Source: Cetorhinus maximus (lineage: Eukaryota). From it: a DNA stretch of 64,000 nucleotides. The translations under genes and the position numbers were made by a program. Below are positions 12,405 through 56,689 of the stretch, piece after piece. The stretch lies in assembly GCF_964194155.1 (NCBI RefSeq), contig NC_135879.1, forward strand, positions 31,124,001 through 31,188,000, given 5' to 3'. The stretch's first letter is position 1. Every line of letters begins with the position of its first letter. The notes below the pieces were generated by a model, which saw nothing but the letters and a program-made list of their open reading frames with translations, was not told the DNA's origin and did no database searches.

Positions 12405-14690
12405 CCGTTTGGTGGTGGAGGGTGAATATTTGTGGAAAGGGTGCCATTCAAGCGGGTTTTGTCCTGGATGGTGTTGCACTTCTTGAGTGTTGTTGCAGCT
12501 GCACCCATCCAGGCAAGTGGAGTATTTCATCACACTCCTGACTTGTGCCTTGTAAATGGGGAAAGGTTTTGGGGAGTTAGGTGGTGCATTACTCTCTGCA
12601 GAATTCCTAGTCTCTGACCTGCTCTTGTAGTCACAGTGTTTATATGGTTAGCTCAGTTCAATTTCTGGTCAATGGTAACCCCCACGATGTTAATATTGGG
12701 GCAGTGATGGTAATGCCATTGAACATCAAGGAGCGATGGTTGGATTCTCTCTTATTGGAGATGGTCATTGCCTGACACTTGTGGTGCGAATGTTACTTGG
12801 CAGCCCATGCCTGGATATTGTCCAGTTCTTGCTGCATTTGGGCATGGACTGCTTCGGTATCTGAGGAGTCACGAATGGTGCTCAACATTGCACAAATGGT
12901 GCTCAACATTGCACAATCAGCAGCAAACACCCCACTTCTGACCTTATGATGGAAGGTCGGTCATTGATGATGCAGCTGAAAATGGTTGGGCCGGCCTGGG
13001 ACACTACCCTGAGGAACTCCTGCAGTGATGTCCTGGGACTGAGATGACTGACCTCCAACAACCACAACCATCTTCCTTTGGTTGGAGTCATACCTAGCAC
13101 AGTGGAGATTTTTCCACGATTCCCATTGACTCCAGTTTTGCTAGGGCTCCTTGATTCCACACTCAGTCAAGTGCGGCCTTGATGTCAAGGACAGTCATTC
13201 TCATCTCACCTCGGGAGTTCAGCTCTTTTGTCCATGTTTGAGCCAAGGCTGCAATGAGGTCAGGAGCTGAGTGGCCCTGGCAGAACCCAAACTGGGCATC
13301 AGTGAGCAGGTGATTACTAAGCAAGTGCTGCTTGATAGCACTGTTGATGACCCCTTCCATTGCTTTACTGATGATCAAGAGTAGACTGATGGGGCGGTAA
13401 TTGGCCAGGTTGGATTTGTCCTTTGTGTGTAGAGGACATGCCTGGGCAATTTTCCACATAGCCGGGTAGATGCCCGTGATGTAGCTGTACTGGAACAGAT
13501 TGGCTAGGGGGCACAGCAAGTTCTGGACTAGTACTATTGTCAGGGTCCATAGCCTTTGCAGTGTCCAGTGCCTTCAGCCATTTCTTGACATCACGTGGAG
13601 TGAATTGAATTGGCTGAAGACTGGCATCTGTGATGCTGGGGACCTCCGGAGGAGGAGGTAGAGATGGATCATCCACTTGGCACTTCTGGCTGAAAATTGT
13701 AGCAAATGCTTCAGCCTCATCTTTTGCACTGATGTGCTGAGATCCTCCTTCATTGAGGATGGGGATATTTGTGGAGCCTCCTCCAGTGAGTTGTTTAATT
13801 GTCCACCAACATTCACGACTGGATGTGCTTCACAGCTAAATTTGATCCGTTGATTGTGGGATGGCTTAGCTCTGTCTATCACTTGCTGCTTATGCCGTTT
13901 GGCACACAAGTAGGCCTGTGTTATAGCTTCACCAGGTTGATGCCTCATTTTTAGGTATTCCTGATGCTGCTCCTGGCATACCTTCCTACACTCTTCATTG
14001 AACTAGGGCTGATCCCCTGGCTTGATAGCAATGGTAGAGTGGGGGATATGCTGGGCCATGAGGTTACAGTTTGTGCTCAAGTACAATTCTCCTGCTGCTG
14101 ATGGCCCACAGCACCTCATGGATGCCCAGTCTCAAATGGCTAAATCTGTTCGAAATCTATCCCATTTAGCACAATGGTAATGGCACACAACACAATGGAG
14201 GTCATCCTCAATGTGAAGGCAAGACTTTGTCTCCACAGCAACTGTGCAGTGGTCATTTCTACCGATACTGTTATGGACAGATGCATCTGCAGCAGGCAGA
14301 GTGGTGAGGATGAGGTCAAGTATGTTTTCCCCTCTTGTTGGTTCCCTCACCAACTGCCACAGACCTTGTCTAGCAGCTGTGTCATTTAGGACTCGGCCAG
14401 CTCAGTCAGTAGTGTTGCTACTGAGCCACCTCTTGGTGATGGACATTGAAACCCCCACCCAGAGCACATTCTGTGCCCTTGCCACCCTCAGTGCTTCCTC
14501 CAAATGGTTTTCAACATGGAGGAGCATGGAATCATCAGCTGGAGGAGGTTGGTACAAGGTAATCAGCAGCAGGTTTCCTTGCTCATGTTTCACCTGATGC
14601 CATGATACTTCATGGGGCCTGCAGTCGATGTTAAGGAGTCCCAGGGCAACTCTCTCCTGACTGTATATCACTGTGCCATCACTTCTGGAT
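12405..14690 (-). mobile_element. CR1/Jockey-group LINE ('family B') ORF2 remnant: APE endonuclease + RT
   Basis: VREPTRGENILDLILT..GRNDH (EN), NYRPISLL..SKAME, QFGF..GHS, LDIKAA; frameshifted; 21-bp tandem duplication at 12874-12915. Confidence 0.9.
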
Positions 14691-24339: not shown

Positions 24340-25030
24340 CACTGAAGCAGTGTGTGCCCATATGCAGCGTGATCTGGATAACACATTCAAGCTTGGTCTG
24401 TTAAGTGGCAAGTATCATTCTTGCCACACAAGTTCCAGGCAATGCCCATCGCCAACACAGAGAATCTAATCATCGCCCCATGACATTCAATGGCACTACC
24501 ATCGCAAAGGGTCACCATCAACCAGAAATGGAACTGGATCAGCTATATAAATACTGTGATTACAAGAGCAGCTCAAGGACCTGGATCACTGGCCTATCAT
24601 CATCTACAAGACACAAGTCAGGAATATGATGGAATACTCTCCAATTGCCTGGATAAGTGCAGCTCCAACAACACTCAGGAAGCTCAACACCATCCAAAAC
24701 AAAGCAGTTCACTTGATCGGCACCCCACCCACAACCTGAAGTATCCCACCACCAAAGCACGGTGGCAGCAGTGTGTACCATATACAAGATGCACTGTAGC
24801 AACTCACCAAGGTTCCTTCGACAGCATCTTCCAAACCCGCGACTTCTGCCACCTAGAAGGAAAGGGGCAGCAGATACATGGGAACACAGCCGGCTACAAG
24901 TTCCTTTTTAAGCCACATATCATCCCTGACTTAGAAATATATCGATGTTTCTTCACTGTCGCTGGATCAAAATCCTGGAACTCCCTTCTTAACAGAACTG
25001 TGGGAGTACCAACATAAGATAAACTGCAGT
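24340..25030 (+). mobile_element. Family-B LINE 3' fragment
   Basis: Same sequence family as 31890-32402; FFTVAGSKSWNSL. Confidence 0.8.
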
Positions 25031-31889: not shown

Positions 31890-32402
31890 TCCCAAAGCCT
31901 GTCCACCATCCACAAGGCACAGCTCAGGAATGTGATGGGATGCTCTCCACTTGTCTAGATGAGTGCAGCTCCAACATCACTCAGGAAGCTTGATATCATC
32001 CAGGACAAAGCAGCCCACTTGATTGTTTATGGATGGGGTGCCATTCACTCCTTCCACCACCTACACACAGTGGAAGCAATGTGTACCATCTACAAGGTGC
32101 ACTGCAGAAACTCACCAAGGCTCTTTCAACAGCACCTTCCTGACCCATGACCACTACCATCTAGAAGGATAAGGGCAGCAGATACATGGGAACACCACCA
32201 CCTGGAAGTTCACCTCCAAGCCACTCACCATCCTGACTTGGAAATATATTGCCGTACCTTCACTGTTGCTGGGTCAAAATCCTGAAACTTCATTCCTAAC
32301 AGCACAGTGGGTGTACCTACACTGCATAAACTGTAGTGGATCAAGGCAACAGCTTATCACCATCTTCTCAAGGGTAGTTAGGGATGGACAATGAATGCCA
32401 GC
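31890..32402 (+). mobile_element. Family-B LINE 3' end
   Basis: MSAAPTSLRKLDIIQDKAAHLI..HSFHH; tail caagggtagttagggatggacaatgaatgcc. Confidence 0.85.
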
Positions 32403-33439
32403 GATAGGAGTAAGAGGGAAGAGAAGGAATTAGGAAATAGGCACTATTTTTGAGCCAACTGCCTAATATCACAAAGGAAATTCCAATTTCCCTCTATCTT
32501 CAGGCTACACATTTAGCACCTTTTATTCCAGCATGCCTGAAATTGATGACTTTCATTGAGGGGTTGACATTTCCTAATTAGGAACCCAGCTCCCTGAAGG
32601 TCAAAACTAGTGATATTTTTCATCCCAGCATTATCAAGTACTCTCACTAGACTTGAAATAAGTACAAAATACCATCATTTTCAAATTAAATTTTCTCTTC
32701 AGTTTTCCATAGGCAAACTTGGAAGATCTAGAAACATTGATTTAAATAGACCAAAAAAAAAATCACATGAACAAAATTATGTACAGGTTCTAAACATCAA
32801 ATTTGGAACACCTTTCCATAGTCTTCCCTTTGGCCCTGGAGTTTGTTATGCAAATGTTATGCTAGTAATAAGCAGAAAGATGCAAATAGTAAAAAGTATC
32901 CTGTCTTAAAGAACTACTTTGCATGCGTGTGCTACACTTAAATTGAGGTCTTTGTGATCACATTAAGTGTTTCAAGGATAGAAGGAACTATCAACAAAAA
33001 CTTTTTAAATGGTCGACATTCACAAAACTTGTAAAGTCAGTATCCATACATTAACGACTAGAATAGCAGCGCACGGTCTATAGCTAGTTTCCCATTTTCA
33101 CGATGCTAAGAAGGTCATAGGTCAAGAGATTTCCCACAGCAGCAAGGGTGTAATTTTTTTTAAACACTTCACAGATAACTCAGGTCTTGATAGCACAGCT
33201 GACAAAAAAAAGTGGATAGTTCAAGAACAAAATTGTATACTAATTAAAAATGTAACCACAGTGCATAGAAACATTTCAAATAAATTTAACATGTTAAGGC
33301 TTAGCTTCAACTGTTACTTGAGGTCAGAAAATGGAGGTCAAAATAATATTTAATTGACAGTAAAAGACATTAGGTCTAGTTTTCAAGCACAGCATTCATA
33401 GGAGAAATGTACCGACACTGATCTCAGATAAAGAGTACT

Positions 33440-34590
33440 TTATTTTTATTCATTCATGTGGTGTGGGCTAGGCCAGCATTTATTGCCCCAGTCCATGTGG
33501 TGTGGGCACACACATAGTGCAGTTCGAGAGAGTGTTCCAGGATTTTGATCAGCATTGAAGGAATGGCAATATATTTCCAAGTCAGGATGGAGTGTGGCTT
33601 GGAGGAGAACTTCCAGGTGGTGGTGTTCCTAAGCATCTGCTGCCATTGTCCTTCTAGATGGTAGCGGTTGTGGGTTAGGAAGGTGCTGTTTAAGGGTCTT
33701 GGTGAGTTCCTGCTGTGCATCTTGTAGATGGTACACACTGCTGCCACTGTGTGTCAGTGGTGGAGGGAGTGAGTGTTTGTGGATGGGGTGCCAATCAGGT
33801 GGGATGCTTTGCCCCAGATGGTGTCAAGTTTCTCGAATTTTGTTGGAGCTGCGCTCATCCAGGCAATGGGAGAGTATTCCATCACACTCCTGACTCGTGC
33901 ACTATAGATGGTGGACAGGCTTTGGGGAGTCAGGAAGTGAGTTACTCGCTGCAGGATTCCTAGCCTCTGACCTGCTCTTGTACCACAGTCTTTATACGGC
34001 TAGTCCACTTTGGTTTCTGTTCAATGGTAACCCCCAGGATGTTGATAGTGGGGAATTCAGTGATAGTAATGCCAATGAATTTCATGGGGCAATGGCTAGG
34101 TTCTCTCTTGTTGGAGATCAACAGGCACTTGTGTGGCACGAATGTTACTTGCCACTTACCAGCCCAAGCCTGGACATTGTCCAGGCCTTACTGCATTTGG
34201 ACATGAACTTCTTCAGGACCCAAGTCATCACGAATGGTGTGGAGCACTGTGCAATCATCAGCGAACATCCCCACTCCTGACCTCATGATAGAAGGAAGGT
34301 CATTGATGAAGCAGCTGAAGATGGTTGGGCTGACAACATTACCCTGAGGAACTCCTGCAGTGATGTCCTGGAATTGAGATGATTGACCTCCTAAAATCAC
34401 AACCAGCTTCCTTTGTACTAGGTATGACTCCAACCAACGGAGAGTCCCCCCCCCCAACCCCGATTCCCATTGACTCCAGTTTTGCTCGGGTGCCTTGGTG
34501 CCACACTCGGTCATATGCTGCCTTGATGTCAAAGGCAGTCATTCTCATCTCACCTCTGGAGTTCAGCTCTTTCATACATGTTTGAACAAT
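33440..34590 (-). mobile_element. Family-B LINE RT/3' fragment
   Basis: DIKAAYDRVWHQG; GVPQGNVVSPTIFSCFINDLPS..GMFADDCT. Confidence 0.9.
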
Positions 34591-42690: not shown

Positions 42691-44496
42691 TTGCAGTTCA
42701 GATGGTCCAAAGCCAAGGATTTAGAAACAGATTTTAAAAAAGGTAAACATGCCCAAAACAAGGTTAGAAGAACAAAGATTTCATGCCCAAAAGGATTGGG
42801 CTTCTTGCAATGCCTATCAAATTATCTACACTTGCGAAGACTTAGATAAATAATAATGGTCCTTTGGGCAATGAGTCAGGAACCATGTAACAATAACAGC
42901 AAATGCCTTCTGAACAGGACAGGGAAGGATAATAGTTTGTTGAGAATAGGGATACCAGAAATATGGCTGTCAATGCCTCCAATGCTAAACCTAACTTGCT
43001 TTGTAATGTTACCAGGGGAGTATATAGTAATGCACTGCAAGTATATTATATAAAGTGAAAAAAATGATGCAATCACCACCAGAATTCCTCAGCAATCAAT
43101 GTTAACAGTAAATTAAATTCAACTACATGACATCGAACATTTTCAGTAACTTCTCACCATTTATTCAACGTGATAAGAATTTGTTAAACAAGATATTCAA
43201 ACACTAAAAACGAACGGTGTCGAAGGATGCAAGTCATATTCTTCAACAAAGTTACTGCTATTTGCTACAGACATATCTGCCGGTAACAGCTGGAAAGAAG
43301 CAAGTCAGGTTTTAAAAGTTAAGCATATGCCTACGACCATGTAAAATATCAGTTTCGGTTATCGGGCACAGCCGGTTCAATATTCCGTTCCAACACTGTT
43401 CACTCACCTCCCTCCAACACTATTAAAACCTGATTTCCTCCCATGAAACACGGCCTGCCTATAGTGGAACTACACGTGCTAGACTGAAATTTGATCAGAA
43501 ATGGGGGATGGGCATCATTCAGAATGCGCTGTAATCATGAATGCGCTTTCATCAGCAGATTCGACTACTTTCAGCTTCCCTACGAAAGTGAAACGATTTA
43601 ACTTTGGGGGGAGACAGAGAAATCTAACAAATCCACAATTTTCAAAACCATATATTCTATTGGAATATCAAGTTAATAGAAAAACCACCACGTTTCTTTC
43701 CAGTAGGATTATGGGTAAAGCCGCTTTGATCTTTATTGTCTGGGTTAATGCAACTTGCTGATACCAACCCAGTACTAGTAAACTCAACAAAACCGTTTAC
43801 TTTCGAGTGTAAATCATTACAAAGTTGCTCACGGTAGCGAAGAATGAATTGCATTGTGATAAGGATCATGTACATAAATTCTGTCAAACTAAAAATAAAT
43901 TTGATTAAATCCCCAGGAATCGATTTCAAGTTTCCCGACTGACCTCCTTCCTTGACAGCAACAATATAGAAAACCTCGACAAGGCTGCAGTAAACAGCAG
44001 TTCTTTCATTTAAAAATTATGGATAGATTTCACTCCAGACTTCTAGTGTAAACAGACCACACCTCTTACAGATTTGCTTAACCTGATGCCCATTTATGTA
44101 AATAAAATGGGTGAATGACACATACCAATATGGCAACACAGCATGAAAACATGGACTGTATACAGATTAAAAGAACGAGTACTCTTAGGCACGTGGGCTA
44201 TAAACTAATCCAATCAGATATTTCACCAAACCGAAAGACTGTCCACACAATTTTAAAACAGCAAGTCAGATTAAGAAACGGTTAAAAGCTCGTTTTAAAA
44301 TGGATGCATGCCACCATTTTTTAAAAACGCTATTTTTCCCCCCAAACTATTTACTAAATCACAACTTGGTCAGGTATAAATAGCAAACCACAGGCGATTA
44401 GAAAAATAAAGGTTGTCGCCACTCGACTGTCACCTTGTAGCTTTCCTTCAAAAGACCCCCTCAGTCAGATTTTAAATAAAGATCCCGTGCACAAAC

Positions 44497-44911
44497 CTGT
44501 CTCCTGGCTGCTGACATTCATGCTGTTGGCAGTGACCATGTTTTTCTTCTTGGTCCAGGGGTTGATTTTAGGAGGGGGCGCCTCCGTGAATTTTTTCTGC
44601 GACTTCTCCGTCGGCTCCCTCTGGGTTTGGTCGTTTTCCTTATTCTCGGCGTCGGTCGCCACCTCCAGCGCGCCGCTTCGCTGTTCGGACTGGTCTCGGC
44701 CTCCGGGCTGGGGCTCCAGCCTCGCCGATAGGCCGCTGCCCGCCTCCTCGTCCATCCCCGCAGCCGACGACAACGTGGAGCGGTCGCGGGTCACCGGCTC
44801 ATCTTGAGGGCTGCCTCCGCTGCTGCTGCTGTTGCTGCTACCCGACGGCTGAAGAGATGTGTCGTGATCCGTGGGCTGAAGCATGGGGGACTGAACCTCC
44901 GTGGCCATCAT
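44497..44911 (-). CDS. LARP1B: La-related protein 1B, first coding exon (MMATEVQSPMLQ...KKFTEAPPPKINPWTKKKN...SQET)
   Basis: ATGs at 44911 and 44908; CAG|gtttgt donor at 44495-44496; 415 nt, phase 1; LARP1-family MAT.V start and EAPPPK(V/I)NPWTK motif; probable acceptor (tttgatttgacag) at 45004-45005 gives a short 5' UTR part; paralog assigned by ABHD18 synteny. Confidence 0.88.
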
Positions 44912-46830
44912 GCGCTGCACGGCTGGGCCGCTCTCCAAATTCACCGCTCCTCCCTTGCTCTCTCTCTCTCTCTAATAATTGGCTTTTAAATATTCACGAT
45001 TTACTGTCAAATCAAAATACAAGATGGGCAATTAAAAAGTGTTCCCTCACTTCATTAAAATCCCTACGGTCACTGGGATCAAAAGCATAAAGGCAGCGAG
45101 TGGCTCTCTTCTCCCACCTCTCCCCCCCACCCCCATTCCCGAAAAAGGGCAAAGTTTAGGCGATTTAAAAATGGAGGGGGAGAAAGCGAAAGGAGCAGCT
45201 AATAAAAAACGAATAAAACAGTGTCAGTTGGGTGTGCAAATCAAACAGCTGCTCTAATGTTACTTGAAACGGGGGGGGAGGTTTACAAAATGTATTTTAA
45301 GGTAACAAATATACGCGTTCTTTCAGTCTAGACGCTATAATGACCACGCGTCCTGTTGCTCACCTCCCCTTGAGGGAGGAGGGGGGAAGAGGGGGTGTGG
45401 ATGTGAGCGCTTGATCAGCTGCTTAAAGCGCTCTCGCCGGCTCTCGGCCACCACGTGTGAGCGCTTCACACTGACGTGTCCAGACTTCGGGATCTCTTCA
45501 CCGGCCTAGGGCCGCCTCCTCCTCCCGGGCTTCGGGAAGCTCTCTCCCTCCCTCCCTCCTTCCTTCCTTCCTCTAGCCTCAGGAGCCCTCCGCCAGCCCG
45601 GGCCCCTATCCCTCCTCGGGGATTTCTCCGCCGCCTCCTCCTCCCGGGCTTCGGGAACTTCTCCGCCGGCCTAGGGCCCTCTTTCTCCCCCCCACCCCCC
45701 CACTCCTGGGCCGCGGGAGCTCGCCGCCAGCCCGGGCCCCCTCTCCCTCGGCCCGGGCTTCGGGAGCTCTTCCCGGGGCCGCCTCCCTTCACACCATTGT
45801 TACGACATCCAGCTGTTACTGTGGAAACAGGCCTTGTTTACTGTCTGTACCCCCCTCCTCCTTCCCCTGAGTCCGGTGAAATGTTTAAATTTTTATCTTA
45901 GACCAAAAAGCACGTGAGAGAAATTTGAACCCGAGGATTCTATAACGATCAAGACGGGGAACGAGGCCGCCAAGGGTCAATTCAATGCCACACACCAGCC
46001 CAACAATATGAAGGGCAATGTCCTAATTCTCCCCTTACCTTGGATCAGCATCTAAAAATACACCCTCTCCCTCTCTCTCTCTCTCTCAAATCGCTTTGGA
46101 AAAAAAAAATCCCCAAGAGGGAAAACGTGTTTTCTCTTTTAGCTTCAATGTCTCAGCGGGATTTCTTCAGGCCCCGGGGGGTGTGGAAAAAAGAAAACGA
46201 AGGAGCGTCCTGCGGGAGGAAATTCCAGCTCGCGAACTGAAAGCAGAAACCGGGAGGAGTCGAGCCAGCACCAGCACAATATGGTGGACTAGAGAGAGAA
46301 AAAAAAGGACGAGTCGCTCCCCCTTCGGAACTCGAGCACTGCAACAAACGTGGTTCCACGCCAGCCTCCTCTACCCACCCCCCCCTCCTCTTTTTCCTTT
46401 CCACTCCCCCCCCCCCCCCCCCCCCGGGAGACCGCCCAGCAGGAGCAGCCTTTCTTCTTTAATCCAAGGAGCGCTCCGAATCTTCTCCTTCCTTTCCCTC
46501 CACTTACTGCTGCACCCGCCGGCCATCCGCTGCCATTTGCGTAAGTTCACACATGCTTTCCCCGCACCATTGTCGATCGACAGCTCGGTTATGGCGCTGC
46601 GCCTGCGCACTGTTGGCTTCGTCTGTGTTTTTTTGGCTCCTCTACCGTCCCCGGGAGATGGGGTGCGTGGGTGGGTGGAGGGGCGGGATTACGCATGTAC
46701 GTCTCGCTTCCCCCCACCCCCCACGGCGCGTCGCCTTCCTTTTCAAAACACGCTGCCGGAAGTGCGTGTCCATGTTGCAGCATGATCGGTTTCAGAGCAG
46801 GGTGCATGCGCAGTTCACTGAACAGCGTCT
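44560..46830 (-). promoter_or_regulatory. CpG island / LARP1B promoter and probable non-coding first exon
   Basis: CpG-rich and free of interspersed repeats in a CpG-depleted window; NRF1-type GCGCCTGCGCA (46598-46608) and TGCATGCGCA (~46803-46812), ETS CCGGAAGT (46756-46763), GC box GGGCGG (46681), YY1-like AAATGGC (minus, ~46533-46539); minus donors AAG|GTAAGG (46037-46038) and GCA|GTAAGT (46506-46507). Confidence 0.8.
45484..45790. repeat. GC-rich mosaic repeat in the CpG island
   Basis: cttcggga x4, ccggcctagggcc x2, gccgcctcctcctcccgggcttcgggaa x2, cgccagcccgggcccc x2. Confidence 0.75.
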
Positions 46831-47024
46831 TCCCAAATTCACATTTCTTACCTTCCTCATCAATAGGAAATTATCACATCTCATCCCCAGTCCTTTCAGA
46901 AGAGCCAAACTGCCAGCAAAGACAACTTACTGGGTGAGTTGCACTCAACGCTGTGGGACTGGAGCAGCCCAGAGCGGCTGGAAGTGTATGAGATTTCACT
47001 TCTAACGGACAGCATGCCACAATT

Positions 47025-51329: not shown

Positions 51330-52680
51330 GTTTGATCAAAGAGAATCAGCTTAGGAGGTCTAGATTAGGTATTTCAGAGCCTAGACTGGTTGAAGAATTG
51401 GTCACTAATGTTGGGAACAAAGTTGGGGGTGGTAACAGGGATATATAGAGGCACGAATTAAAGGAATGGAGATCTCAGGGGAATTTCTAGCTTGTAGAAA
51501 GTAATGCAGATAGACCACAGAGAGATTTAAACACAAGAGTGAGAATTTTAAATTTGAGGTAATGGAGAACTAGAGTCCAATGTAGGTCGACCAGGGAAGG
51601 GATGAACAAACAGTCAGGATATGGGATCAGAAGATTAGTTTGTGGTTAACTAGGTGACTGAGGTAGTGACCAAGGGAGATGGCGTCTGGAGCAGGGATAT
51701 AAGACTATGGCTTTGATCTTCCCAAAACTTAGCTGGAAAAAATTATGGCTCATCCAAGATAATGTCAGACAAGCAATCAAACAGTTTAGAGGTAGTGGAA
51801 GAGCCAAGAAAGAGGTGAGAGGTAGAGCTGTTGGTCATCAGAACTTTTGTGGAAGATGTCCTATTTCTGCAAATTATGTTACGAAAGGCAGTATGTAGAT
51901 AAAGAGGGGCACAGTGCTAAGGATGGATTCTTGAGACTCCCAAAATGATAGCGCAAAGAAAGGCAAGAAGAGGCCAGTGTTAGAGATACACAAAAAACAA
52001 TCTGATTGGCATGAGTGGAACCAAACAAGGAAAATGTAATTGAGCTGGATAACAGAGGAGATGCACTGGGACAGCAGTCCACAACATATTCCAAAGTTTT
52101 CATAGAGGGGGCAGGATATTGCACTGATGGCCACAGGGAGTGTGTGAAACTTTGGTTAGGGCGTTTAGGTGCCACCGAAATGGGAGAAATCTGACTGGAG
52201 AGATTCAAATTGGAATAGCTGGAAAGATGAGCATAGGTCTTGAAGTCAACATGTTCAGAGGATAAGGAAGTTCAATTTGGTGTAGTATTTTGAAAAGCCA
52301 GAGGTTGAGTATTTTTTTTTGGATAATGATGGTGGCTGTTTTGAAAAGGAGGGGTCAATATCTGAGGAGGGGGAACAATTTACAATTTAGCATGGGGCCA
52401 GGGAGGCATTTTTGGTTGTTAGTAGTTTAGGGGGAAATGGGGTTGATGAAGCAAGGGTGAGCAAGGTGAAAGCAGATTTAGGAGCTGATCAGATAGGCTG
52501 GGACAATCCGACTGAAGAATACAAAGTCAAGAACTAAAATTGTTTAAATCAATGGCATGGGGAGCCACTGAAAGTTCAAGAATCCACAGAGTGACAAGGG
52601 TGCAGGCAAGGGTATTTTGCAGGAGTTGGAGATCGTGGAGAGTTAAGACAGGAAGGCCAGCGAGAAATGCATTAGATATA
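51330..52680 (-). mobile_element. Degenerate L2 LINE (left flank of the palindrome)
   Basis: Reverse L2 RT/3' remnants similar to 39660-41750. Confidence 0.65.
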
Positions 52681-53470
52681 TATTTTTTTTAATTCTTTCA
52701 TGGATTTGGGTATTGCTGGCAAGGTCAGCATTTGTTGCCCATCCCTAATTTCCTCTGATCTCTTCGGCCATTTCAGAGGGCAGTTAAGAGTCATCTACAT
52801 TGCTGTGTGTCTGGAGCTACATGTAGGTCAGACTAGGTAAGGATGCCAGATTTCCTTCCCTAAAAGGACATTCCCACCATGGTAGCTGGTGGAATTTAAA
52901 TTCAATAGGGAAAAAAAATCTGGAATTGAAAGCTAGTCCCTCTAATAGCACCATGATGCTATCATTTGATTGTTGTTAAAACCCATCTGATTCACTAATG
53001 TCCTTTTAGGGAAGGAAATCTGGCATCCTTACCTGGTCTGACCTACATGTAGCTCCAGACACACAGCAATGTAGATGACTCTTAACTGCCCTCTGAAATG
53101 GCCGAAGAGATCAGAGGAAATTAGGGATGGGCAACAAATGCTGACCTTGCCAGCAATACCCAAATCCATGAAAGAATTAAAAAAAATATATATCTAATGC
53201 ATTTCTCGCTGGCCTTCCTGTCTTAACTCTCCACGATCTCCAACTCCTGCAAAATACCCTTGCCTGCACCCTTGTCACTCTGTGGATTCTTGAACTTTCA
53301 GTGGCTCCCCATGCCATTGATTTAAACAATTTTAGTTCTTGGCTTTGTATTCTTCAGTCGGATTGTCCCAGCCTATCTGATCAGCTCCTAAATCTGCTTT
53401 CACCTTGCTCACCCTTGCTTCATCAACCCCATTTCCCCCTAAACTACTAACAACCAAAAATGCCTCCCTG
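52399..53470. repeat. Long inverted repeat: arms 52399-52872 and 52997-53470 (474 bp each), 124-bp spacer
   Basis: Block-by-block reverse-complement comparison gives 472/474 identity; mismatches T52527/G53342 and T52834/G53035. Confidence 0.97.
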
Positions 53471-53530
53471 AACCCAAGACCCATAGCCATTAGCCTGAGC
53501 CTCTGGGTTACTAGTCCAGTGACATTACCA
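52681..53530. mobile_element. tRNA-derived SINE sharing the family-B LINE tail, rearranged by the inversion-duplication
   Basis: Head on minus at 53471-53530 (tggtaatgtcactggactagtaacccagagg..gggtt); body and tail on plus at 52872-53186; second tail on minus at 52681-52872. Confidence 0.8.
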
Positions 53531-54328
53531 AGTTGGAAAGCCTGGGCCAAGGAGCAGAACATAAGCTACCAAAATTTACATTTCCTTGTCCAGCCCGATA
53601 AGCAAGACCTCAAATGTGTTATGAAATGAAAATACAGTAGGAATTCTAGTCTCAGTAAGGGTCCTATTAATTAACTAATTAAAAGCACAGGGTAATCTTC
53701 TGAATGGGGAAAAAATAAGTTAAGGAAAAACATTTGTATAATTGATATTTTTTGAATAGTGATTTTAAACTGAGGGTGAATATAAAAATGTCATGCAAGA
53801 AGCATTATAAATTCTGTTTAGCCATTGATCATTTACAAAGCATGGAGAGAAGTGGGGGTGAACAGTCAAGAACTTTGCAGAAACATTGAGACTCTCTAAA
53901 TTCCATGTCTTAGCGACTACATTACCGATAACACACTGTCCCCATTCATGTCATTGTAACAGAACTCAATGTCCTCATATCAGGAGCGCTATGCAGAATG
54001 TCTGGTGCCAGCCTGCTTATAACCAGTAGCTTTGAAAATATGAAACATATTAAACTCTCAAAATGGCAATTATAAACATAGAAATATCTCCTGAAATGAC
54101 ATTTAGAATTAAGAACTATTTGATTATATCTCTGCTTTAGTGAGCAGTTCAATCTTATGTATGACAATTCCACTTTGAAAGGAAGGAAGCAAGTTTTGGT
54201 GTTGAATATTCAGCTTTGAAGAACATGATCGAAATATATATTCTGAGGAAAAGTATTGTAAAACAACCAATACAGCCGCAGTTGTTGAAGCTTTTAAGTT
54301 CTATTTGTATGTCATAATTGGTATAGTA

Positions 54329-55383
54329 CGTTACGGACAGGAGGGGGTTCAACTTAAACAGCCCCGAATTCTCCTGTAACCACCCACCCATAAATAGAAA
54401 GGTGTTTTGATTTGCTTCCCCCTTTATATGTGGTGTATTTCCCAACCCCTTTTTTGGTATGATCCAAGTTCTATCAATAACCCCACAGCAAACTCGAGAT
54501 AGGATGAACTTGAAGTGTTAATTTATTTGCACGCACTCAAACGTGGGAGGAGGGTTGCTACATAGCCCCCTGTGCACTCAAGAGTAAAAGAGCTATAGAG
54601 GAAAGAACGAGTTACAGGGCAAAAACCACAGAGAAAAGAATTATTGTTTCACATGGGTCCAGAGTCCAGAATAAATGTCCAATGAGATATTCCTTATCTG
54701 AGGTCAGCAGCTAAAACTGATGCTGTATAATTCACTTTTCCAGTAGAGCTGACTTCCACGATGAATTGGCACATGGAGATGAATCGATCTTGTAGGTGAT
54801 GGTACAGAAGTTCCAGTAGAAACTAGGTGGGGCCAGGCATTCAAATCTAGGCAGAGCCCCTTTTCTGTGTTGCTGCTTGCAGATAGTAAAATGGCAGACT
54901 GAGCTTTGCAGCTCCACAAGGCAATATTACCGGCTCCACCAGCTAGAGGTTCATATATGACTCCCATCTCTCCACACCACTTTTGACAAAGGACGTGTAT
55001 TCCTCGTCTGGGTCCCCGAGATAGTTAAATGTCCCAGCCATTAAGAATTGAAAGGAAGGTTGCAGGGTTCTTTGTCCTAGCAGACTAGTGGACTCTGGGG
55101 TTGGCATGCAGATGGCCTTTGTATAGTTCTTTGAATTTGGTTTCTGCAGCACAAGGCGGGGTGATGGGGGGGGGGGGGGGTTGTTAGGGTCTCTTCAGAG
55201 GTAACGAAGTGTAAGCTTCTTCAAAACTGCCAAATAGCTCCTTTTGTTCAGGGTCACAGACATACATAGCTTTAGCCATTTGAAAAGGGTCTTTGTCCAG
55301 TTTTTAAAATTTTAGAAATAGCCATTAGGATATCCATATATATTTTACAAAAATATACAGTGTGAGGGCATAGTCCCATTACA
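54329..55383 (-). mobile_element. Solo LTR (Gypsy-like) with 4-bp TSD
   Basis: Termini cgttac...attaca (TG..CA-like); AGTA on both flanks (54325-54328, 55384-55387); AATAAA on minus (~54523). Confidence 0.6.
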
Positions 55384-55979: not shown

Positions 55980-56637
55980 TAGACAGAACTTGCAATATTT
56001 TTATTCATTAAATAAAAATGTCACCTTGTTACATCAGGATCATGGTTTCCAAATTTTGTAGGCAGTATATAGTACAACGTAGCACCAGATTTCTCATTTT
56101 TACATTGTGTTGTGCAGATTTCTATTACATTTGTTCAAGTCAGTTTTAATTTGTAGTACACACATTTAGTTTATTACTTTGTATTTATTCTTGTAAAAAA
56201 TGCAATTTGTATCTGCTTTCCCTGCATTCCATATTTAAGTCAAAAAATAAAATTAAGCATGCTTCAACCTATCCAATACTTTACTAGTGAAAATGTAAAA
56301 ACTATTCAATCAAGTTGACTGTTAATGCTGCTAAGAGCATCTTGGTTGCAACACTTATGACAATATAATAGTGTTAGTTTCAATCAATTTTGAAATATCA
56401 GACTAATAATAATTTGTACTAGGTTAGAGTACAGTGCATTTTTTTTGTTCCTGTAATACTAAGTGACTTTCAACCAGTACGGAACAATTAAGTTCTCTGT
56501 CCTCATTACAAAGTTGCTTCTACAATTCTTTTGCTTGCAGCAATAATTTGGACCAGCCGTAGTGCTGTCAGATATAAATGGGAAAAAAAATCACATGACA
56601 AGATGACTGGAATCAGCGTGGCATCCAATGCTCAGTT
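55980..56637 (-). other. ABHD18: ABHD18 3' UTR with candidate polyadenylation signals
   Basis: AT-rich, repeat-free sequence after the stop; AATAAA on minus at 56184-56189, 56170-56175 and 56000-56005; true 3' end unknown. Confidence 0.6.
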
Positions 56638-56689
56638 CTAGATGGAGTACTTCTGAAGAAAGCGGTCAAATGCATCATAAATGGCTCGC
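56638..56689 (-). CDS. ABHD18: Abhydrolase domain-containing 18, last coding exon ((R)RAIYDAFDRFLQKYSI*)
   Basis: ttttttacag acceptor (56690-56691); phase 2 matches the upstream exon; TAG at 56638-56640; matches the ABHD18 C-terminus QAIYDAFDRFLHKY. Confidence 0.93.

What the first reader, a model, noticed from the sequence alone, without database searches (positions are those of the whole stretch)
52399..53470. Near-perfect 474-bp-arm palindrome between ABHD18 and LARP1B
Seen: arms 52399-52872 and 52997-53470 are 472/474 identical reverse complements around a 124-bp spacer, while every surrounding repeat is heavily decayed. The arms comprise old L2 flank plus a SINE tail, so they are not transposon TIRs. 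Established: long inverted repeats with short spacers form hairpins or cruciforms, are unstable, and give long dsRNA (ADAR/Dicer/MDA5 substrates) when transcribed. Inference: it lies ~2.5 kb past the candidate ABHD18 poly(A) signals, so read-through RNA would fold into a ~470-bp duplex. Both mismatches would be G-U pairs in a plus-strand RNA and A-C in a minus-strand RNA.
Basis: partly seen in the sequence, partly recalled or inferred. Interest (0 to 1): 0.7.

Follow-up and report, generated by a model that had tools for sequence, protein, structure and literature searches.

The report
Flip-and-copy palindrome that broke a SINE
The 474-base mirror repeat between two housekeeping genes is real and splits an old jumping-gene copy whose middle now lies backwards; it likely arose in one DNA-copying accident of a known kind, and no function is shown.

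Summary
The repeat is as described (472/474, 124-bp spacer). Contigs from four runs of one sample carry both new junctions and both arm alleles, and one run shows the arm at about twice flank depth, so an assembly artefact is unlikely; no record spans the whole structure. Turning the spacer back and dropping the right arm rebuilds one SINE; 45 other copies align across that join, none across either observed junction. This is the outcome of a template-switch event of type 1-3-4-2/3-1-2-4 (a duplication-flanked inversion), with a 598-base copied tract and 2 bases lost. A related organism seems to have one arm only. Read-through hairpin RNA from ABHD18 is possible but untested, and this genome holds longer near-perfect hairpins made by a Penelope-like element. 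The scan noted the same event type before in another shark gene. Verdict: real, a new member of a known kind, most likely neutral.

The parts
52399..52872 (.). Left arm; keeps the ancestral join to the left flank; carries both derived C>T changes (52527, 52834)
   Evidence: a repeat relative aligns across 52399; organism C contig shows no listed difference at 53342; 55 of 63 SINE copies have the right-arm base at 53035
52873..52996 (+). Spacer: middle 124 bp of the SINE, inverted relative to its head and to the left-arm tail
52997..53470 (.). Right arm; the added inverted copy, continuous with the spacer in SINE order
   Evidence: (60 copies align across the spacer/right-arm join)
53471..53531 (-). 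Orphaned SINE head with tRNA-like features (recalled consensus); cut inside the B-box-like motif, T5 run 10 nt after the junction
52680..52872 (-). SINE 3' part and A-rich tail inside the left arm (mirror copy at about 52997-53189)
52872..52873 (.). New junction 1 (arm/spacer), 1 nt of microhomology if the locus had the family's usual CAAAT
53469..53478 (-). New junction 2 (arm/right flank): shared CA and 7 of 10 match to 52391-52400
51673..52459 (-). Decayed LINE reverse-transcriptase remnant, L2/CR1-like (clade name recalled); its relatives show RT motifs, its own frames give no Pfam match
56000..56689 (-). ABHD18 last coding exon (56689-56638) and candidate 3' UTR with three AATAAA
43001..47000 (.). 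CpG island, likely promoter of the minus-strand La-domain gene; 5.4 kb from the left arm

Best explanation
The palindrome is an inversion of 598 bases with duplication of 474 of them, which broke an older SINE and was likely made in one template-switch event during DNA synthesis; it is probably neutral. Shown: the earlier allele was left flank + arm + reversed spacer + right flank, holding one intact SINE of about 370 bp. Inferred: a strand being made leftwards stopped in the SINE's B-box-like motif, its 3' end (CTTGGGTTCA) primed on the opposite strand about 600 nt ahead at a 7/10 look-alike (CATGGGGCCA), copied the arm and the spacer backwards, then returned to the original template and copied the arm again (order 1-3-4-2, mirror of 3-1-2-4), losing 2 nt. 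Two C>T changes then hit the left arm. Inferred: any hairpin RNA is a passing by-product of ABHD18 read-through beyond its poly(A) sites.
For: Rebuilt join spanned by 45 other SINE copies, against 0 for the three other rebuilds and 0 for both observed junctions; the same order in genome-wide SINE hits, head and body adjacent on opposite strands of the query and in a 10-copy alignment. Both junctions map within 5 nt of each other in the SINE, as the model needs. A 7/10 match ending in 2 shared bases occurs in 0.2% of random pairs. Type 1-3-4-2/3-1-2-4 gives an inverted repeat with an inverted spacer and is 23% of human-chimp events (PMC5453318, passages and section 6). Read contigs support the structure. 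Organism C has arm and SINE head at the locus with a depth ratio of 0.88 where 1.22 is expected for two arms; own-sample ratios are 1.15, 1.20, 1.47 (1.26 expected) and 2.15 (2.0 expected).
Against: The earlier allele is rebuilt from family copies, not read at this locus in a relative; single copy in organism C rests on one contig's depth. Junction 1 has only 1 nt of microhomology, which fits end joining as well. Six sites within 1.6 kb match the primer equally well and the 7/10 measure was chosen after the fact. The 598-nt tract is far longer than the events in the passages read of PMC5453318, which concern short switches. Contigs cannot fix the spacer's direction; only the assembly does.
Confidence: 0.65

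Rival explanations
1. Staggered-break inversion: two nicks 474 nt apart at one end and a near-blunt break in the SINE at the other; fill-in and end joining invert the piece and duplicate the overhang.
For: Gives the same product; one-sided inverted duplications at inversion breakpoints are described, median 321 bp, in Drosophila (PMC1885836, passages). 1-2 nt microhomology and a 2-nt loss fit end joining.
Against: Does not explain the 7/10 match lying on the primer side of junction 2; needs 474 bp to melt next to a second break only 124 bp away.
Confidence: 0.15
2. An inverted copy of the arm was inserted into the SINE (type 1-4-3-2/3-2-1-4), and the spacer was flipped later by recombination between the arms, or is still flipping.
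For: Both routes give the same two junction sequences, so contigs cannot separate them. That type is 31% of human-chimp events (PMC5453318 section 6). Inverted flank copies occur elsewhere in the sample, such as L098 and L102.
Against: Needs a second event; nothing here shows one.
Confidence: 0.12
3. A hairpin RNA kept by selection: ABHD18 read-through folds into a 474-bp duplex that is edited or diced and tunes termination, the next gene, or the SINE family.
For: Position and strand allow it; the fold is stable, -981 kcal/mol; junction depths suggest both chromosomes carry it; two differences in 474 bp would mean about 3 million generations (0.4-11 million) at the epaulette-shark rate (PMC10587355, abstract).
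Against: Three AATAAA and three ATTAAA lie upstream and one more AATAAA 1 kb before the arm. It seems absent from organism C. No compensatory changes. The SINE head is cut in its B-box-like motif with a T5 stop 10 nt on. The nearest SINE copies scored are 17-20% different. Longer hairpins are tolerated elsewhere.
Confidence: 0.04
4. Assembly or library fold-back artefact.
For: All supporting runs are one sample, possibly the one assembled; no record spans both arms; junction contigs miss the 31-nt rule by 4 and 1 nt.
Against: Both junctions at flank-level depth, arm at 2.15-fold in X4, both alleles of 53342 present, and none of the 6 joints listed at 98% likeness is the single-arm join. A chimera would be rare beside a full-depth normal allele.
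Confidence: 0.03
5. Made by a transposon: terminal inverted repeats, or an inverted insertion at the time the SINE or a Penelope-like element landed.
For: 21 of 44 inverted repeats in the 1.53-Mb sample come from a Penelope-like family.
Against: The arm does not match that family, is found at one place, crosses unrelated repeat boundaries, and is 0.4% diverged while the SINE is 17-20% from its kin and is present in organism C.
Confidence: 0.01

Closest known systems
Four-point template switch, type 1-3-4-2 / 3-1-2-4 (PMC5453318; passages and section 6 read)
   Same: [quoted passage not shown]
   Different: Copied tract of 598 nt, against the short events treated there; found inside repeats, which their human-chimp counts masked; earlier state rebuilt from SINE copies, not from an aligned relative.
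Duplication-flanked inversion, dupINV/INVdup class of complex structural variants (PMC5338099; passages read)
   Same: An inversion with a copy gain at one breakpoint, in inverted orientation.
   Different: About 0.6 kb, in a non-mammalian genome, apparently on both chromosomes; the passages read name the class but give no formal definition.
Staggered-break inversions with inverted duplications in Drosophila (PMC1885836; passages read)
   Same: One-sided inverted duplication of a few hundred bp at the ends of an inversion.
   Different: There the inversions are chromosomal in scale, so the copies are far apart; here they are 124 bp apart and can fold.
Inverted insertions of Penelope-like elements (PMC8557442; passages read)
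   Same: Also leave long near-perfect inverted repeats, common in this genome.
   Different: Arms are element sequence made at insertion; this arm is resident DNA and does not match that family.
Hairpin-RNA loci from inverted duplication and inverted-SINE editing substrates (recalled, no paper read)
   Same: Would give long dsRNA if transcribed.
   Different: No transcript, editing or small RNA shown; lies past the poly(A) signals, not in an intron or UTR as far as predicted.

Membership tests
Template switch type 1-3-4-2 / 3-1-2-4 | New inverted repeat whose arm was single in the earlier allele | tested here: met
   Rebuilt intact SINE with one arm; organism C depth fits one arm, which is weak by itself
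Template switch type 1-3-4-2 / 3-1-2-4 | Spacer inverted relative to the earlier allele | tested here: met
   45 copies span the rebuilt join, 0 span the observed junctions; direction rests on the assembly
Template switch type 1-3-4-2 / 3-1-2-4 | Switch points in the order 3-1-2-4, return point at or just beyond point 2 | tested here: met
   52399 < 52872 < spacer end < return, 2 nt lost
Template switch type 1-3-4-2 / 3-1-2-4 | Made in one round of DNA synthesis, primed by microhomology | tested here: inconclusive
   7/10 at one junction, 1 nt at the other; end joining not excluded
DNA transposon or MITE with terminal inverted repeats | Dispersed copies of the whole unit, arms at element ends | tested here: not met
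   Only SINE parts match elsewhere among the 40 candidates scored; arm spans several repeat types
Penelope-like inverted insertion | Arms made of the element's own end | tested here: not met
   Arm classed 'other' against the family reference
Palindrome kept by arm-to-arm gene conversion | Shared with relatives, arms changing together | tested here: inconclusive
   Organism C looks single-copy on one contig's depth; organism B gave no arm contig from the 48% of the run read
Hairpin-RNA / endo-siRNA or ADAR substrate locus | Transcribed through both arms on one strand | not testable with these tools
   No RNA reads were laid on the arms
Hairpin-RNA / endo-siRNA or ADAR substrate locus | Editing clusters or phased 21-23-nt reads | not testable with these tools
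   Needs RNA and DNA of one individual
Known structured RNA family (Rfam) | Match at gathering score | tested here: not met
   0 matches in the window

The most novel reading that the evidence does not exclude
A replication accident at a SINE's B box built, in the termination zone of ABHD18, a hairpin-RNA gene that has lasted for hundreds of thousands to millions of generations, is read by run-on polymerase, and yields edited or diced RNA acting on termination, on the downstream La-domain gene or on the SINE family; more widely, SINE B boxes would be hot spots for long template switches in slow-mutating shark genomes.
Probability: 0.04. Interest if true: 0.6.

Novelty: new member of a known kind. 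Interest (0 to 1): 0.2.

Why it matters
As it stands it is a clean, base-resolved example of a 600-nt template-switch-type event, where a broken SINE records the earlier state without needing a relative's genome. It shows one way that long hairpin-forming DNA appears from nothing, and that such DNA can persist on both chromosomes. It would matter more if RNA data showed editing or small RNAs, or if the spacer flips between individuals.

Tried and rejected
No RNA holder was listed for the stretch; this says nothing on expression. Raw capture reads of a second animal (X21) did not cover the unique parts. Organism B's run gave no arm contig, with about half of the run read. No relatives' genomes are held for this window. 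ARAGORN and Rfam found nothing in the window. Four stop-free frames of the left flank gave no Pfam match; the LINE label rests on motifs in relatives at 57-59% identity. The 23 non-Penelope inverted repeats of the survey were tested for an inverted spacer: 19 gave no support and 4 gave 1-4 spanning copies (L064, L079, L122, L159), too weak to call; two were looked at again without a clear result. Both mismatches being C>T on one arm was considered as a mark of single-strand damage at the event and dropped: two changes cannot show it. A polymerase III hairpin transcript from the SINE head was rejected (broken B-box-like motif, T5 after 10 nt). Paper searches showed no listing about this locus; only listings were seen for most hits.

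Full report
Observation. The arms 52399-52872 and 52997-53470 are reverse complements at 472 of 474 positions around a 124-bp spacer. Of 70 inverted pairs in the window this is the only long near-perfect one. The window is G000:C1:31124001-31188000 in a 4.0-Gb assembly; a DNA search returned this place alone for the whole unit and SINE-family hits for parts of it, with 40 of 8634 candidates scored.

Is it real? Twenty of 24 listed runs hold the stretch or part of it; four, all one sample, hold more than half of its words. Laid at 98% likeness, exact contigs cross the arm/spacer junction in 3 of 4 runs and the arm/right-flank junction in 1 of 4, with 35/27 and 30/47 nt on the two sides, just under the tool's bridging rule of 31. 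In X4 the arm forms its own contig at depth 174.5, against 81 (right flank), 78.7 and 90.1 (junctions) and 64.1 (spacer). In the other three runs the arm lies on a 1.2-kb contig that runs on into other sequence, presumably the left flank, at 1.15-1.47 times flank depth, where 1.26 is expected for two arms. Position 53342 is G in two runs and A in two, so both arm alleles are in the reads. None of the 6 joints listed is the single-arm join. Junction depths near flank depth suggest both chromosomes carry it. Limits: contig depth is a rough guide, the sample may be the assembled one, no record spans both arms, and contigs cannot fix the direction of the spacer.

Anatomy. The inner 190 bp of each arm are the 3' part of a high-copy SINE whose nearest scored copies are 80-83% identical. 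The spacer continues that SINE into the right arm on the plus strand, while the SINE's head lies at 53471-53531 on the minus strand. In other copies head and body are adjacent. Rebuilding left flank + arm + reversed spacer + right flank gives one SINE of about 370 bp: 45 other copies in the fetched DNA align across that join, against 0 for three other rebuilds and 0 for the two observed new junctions; 60 span the spacer/right-arm join. A LINE-like relative aligns across the left flank/arm boundary, so that join is old. The family mostly reads CAAAT at the break (12 of 22 readable, 19 of 41 not readable): CA is shared with the start of the arm, T with its end, and AA is lost. The break lies in a B-box-like motif (consensus recalled). 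The outer part of the arm is a decayed LINE remnant for about 60 bp and unassigned for about 220 bp.

Mechanism. An inverted repeat around an inverted spacer is the product of template-switch type 1-3-4-2, mirror of 3-1-2-4, 23% of 794 filtered human-chimp events (PMC5453318, passages and section 6). At the outer junction the minus-strand end CTTGGGTTCA matches CATGGGGCCA at 52391-52400 in 7 of 10 positions including the last two; random pairs do so 0.2% of the time, but six such sites lie within 1.6 kb and the measure was chosen afterwards. The match is on the primer side only if synthesis ran leftwards, which favours the 1-3-4-2 reading (inference). The inner junction has 1 nt of microhomology. 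Staggered breaks with end joining give the same product (PMC1885836, passages), and so does an inverted insertion followed by a flip of the spacer; neither can be excluded. In structural-variant terms it is a duplication-flanked inversion (PMC5338099, passages).

Age. Both mismatches are C>T on the left arm: 55 of 63 SINE copies have the right-arm base at 53035, and organism C shows no listed difference at 53342, though 180 rows were hidden. Organism C differs at 36 of 1248 aligned bases and holds arm and SINE head at the locus, with a depth ratio of 0.88 against 1.22 expected for two arms. Arm divergence of 0.42% (0.05-1.5%) is 0.15 (0.02-0.53) of that distance. At 7e-10 per generation, measured in the epaulette shark (PMC10587355, abstract), that is about 3 million generations (0.4-11 million), if the rate carries over and the arms have not converted each other.

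Context and function. ABHD18 is on the minus strand; its last coding exon ends at 56638 and AATAAA stands at 56189, 56175 and 56005, with ATTAAA at three nearby places and another AATAAA at 54527. A CpG island spans 43-47 kb and a La-domain exon lies left of the window on the minus strand. The palindrome is thus intergenic, 2.5 kb past the candidate 3' end and 5.4 kb before the island. Minus-strand RNA folds into one duplex with two A-C mismatches. RNA past a cleavage site is normally degraded during termination (recalled), and expression was not tested. A 124-bp spacer is well beyond the range of strong cruciform-driven instability in yeast (12 to 100 bp: 300-fold less recombination; PMC10164571, passages), which helps explain its survival; hairpins in single-stranded DNA remain possible.

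Background. In 153 stretches of 10 kb (1.53 Mb; 200 kb beside the window, the rest in blocks at round coordinates; two overlapping follow-up stretches left out of the count; repeats crossing stretch edges are cut or missed) there were 44 inverted repeats in 41 stretches with arms of at least 40 bp, 90% identity and spacers up to 3 kb. Twenty-one belong to one family with a GIY-YIG-bearing frame (Pfam 22.3 bits, cut-off 22.6), read as Penelope-like, a class known for inverted insertions (PMC8557442, passages). One has 1581-bp arms, 3 mismatches and a 311-bp spacer. Of the 23 others, four have arms of 50 bp or more at 95% or more within 1 kb, and none reaches 200 bp. So a hairpin this long and perfect is not unusual here, but one built from resident DNA is rarer than one in 1.5 Mb.

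Earlier notes of the scan, read after these results, report the same event type in another shark gene and Penelope-made palindromes in this genome; they are unchecked and not counted as support. No supplements were opened; those of PMC5453318 hold the length distribution that bears on how unusual a 598-nt tract is.

Verdict. Real; a new member of a known kind; template switch about 0.65, staggered breaks 0.15, insertion plus flip 0.12, selected hairpin RNA 0.04, artefact 0.03. Interest 0.2.

Noticed in passing
L153:1714-5186 (also L060, L070/L154, L031, L035, L020, L082, L164): A young Penelope-like family leaves many inverted insertions, from 50-bp stubs to 1581-bp arms with 3 mismatches; 21 of 44 inverted repeats in 1.53 Mb.
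   Followed up: partly
L098:1536-3078; L106:7036-8169; L102:6281-6984: Inverted copies of 50-163 bp of nearby DNA sit at the edge of, or inside, other repeat insertions; dropping one arm restores repeat continuity in L098 (12 copies) and L102 (2). Possibly templated insertions made when a retroelement landed.
   Followed up: partly
L062:9110-9670; L076:9091-9974; L083:3809-4835; L108:1600-1766: Inverted repeats of 46-172 bp in DNA with no match among the sampled repeats; may be smaller or older events of the same kind.
   Followed up: no
window 31891-33926: Inverted arms of about 380 bp at 79-88% around a 1281-bp spacer, with related pieces at 24598-24811 and 12458-12522; looks like a decayed element with terminal repeats.
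   Followed up: no
window 43001-47000: CpG island (observed/expected 0.69-0.87), likely the promoter of the La-domain gene.
   Followed up: no
G000:C772:72092-72244 and G000:C1:79952218-79952355: Further La-domain matches: one on a small contig covering the same profile positions as the exon beside the window, and one with a stop inside; paralogs or copies, not examined.
   Followed up: no
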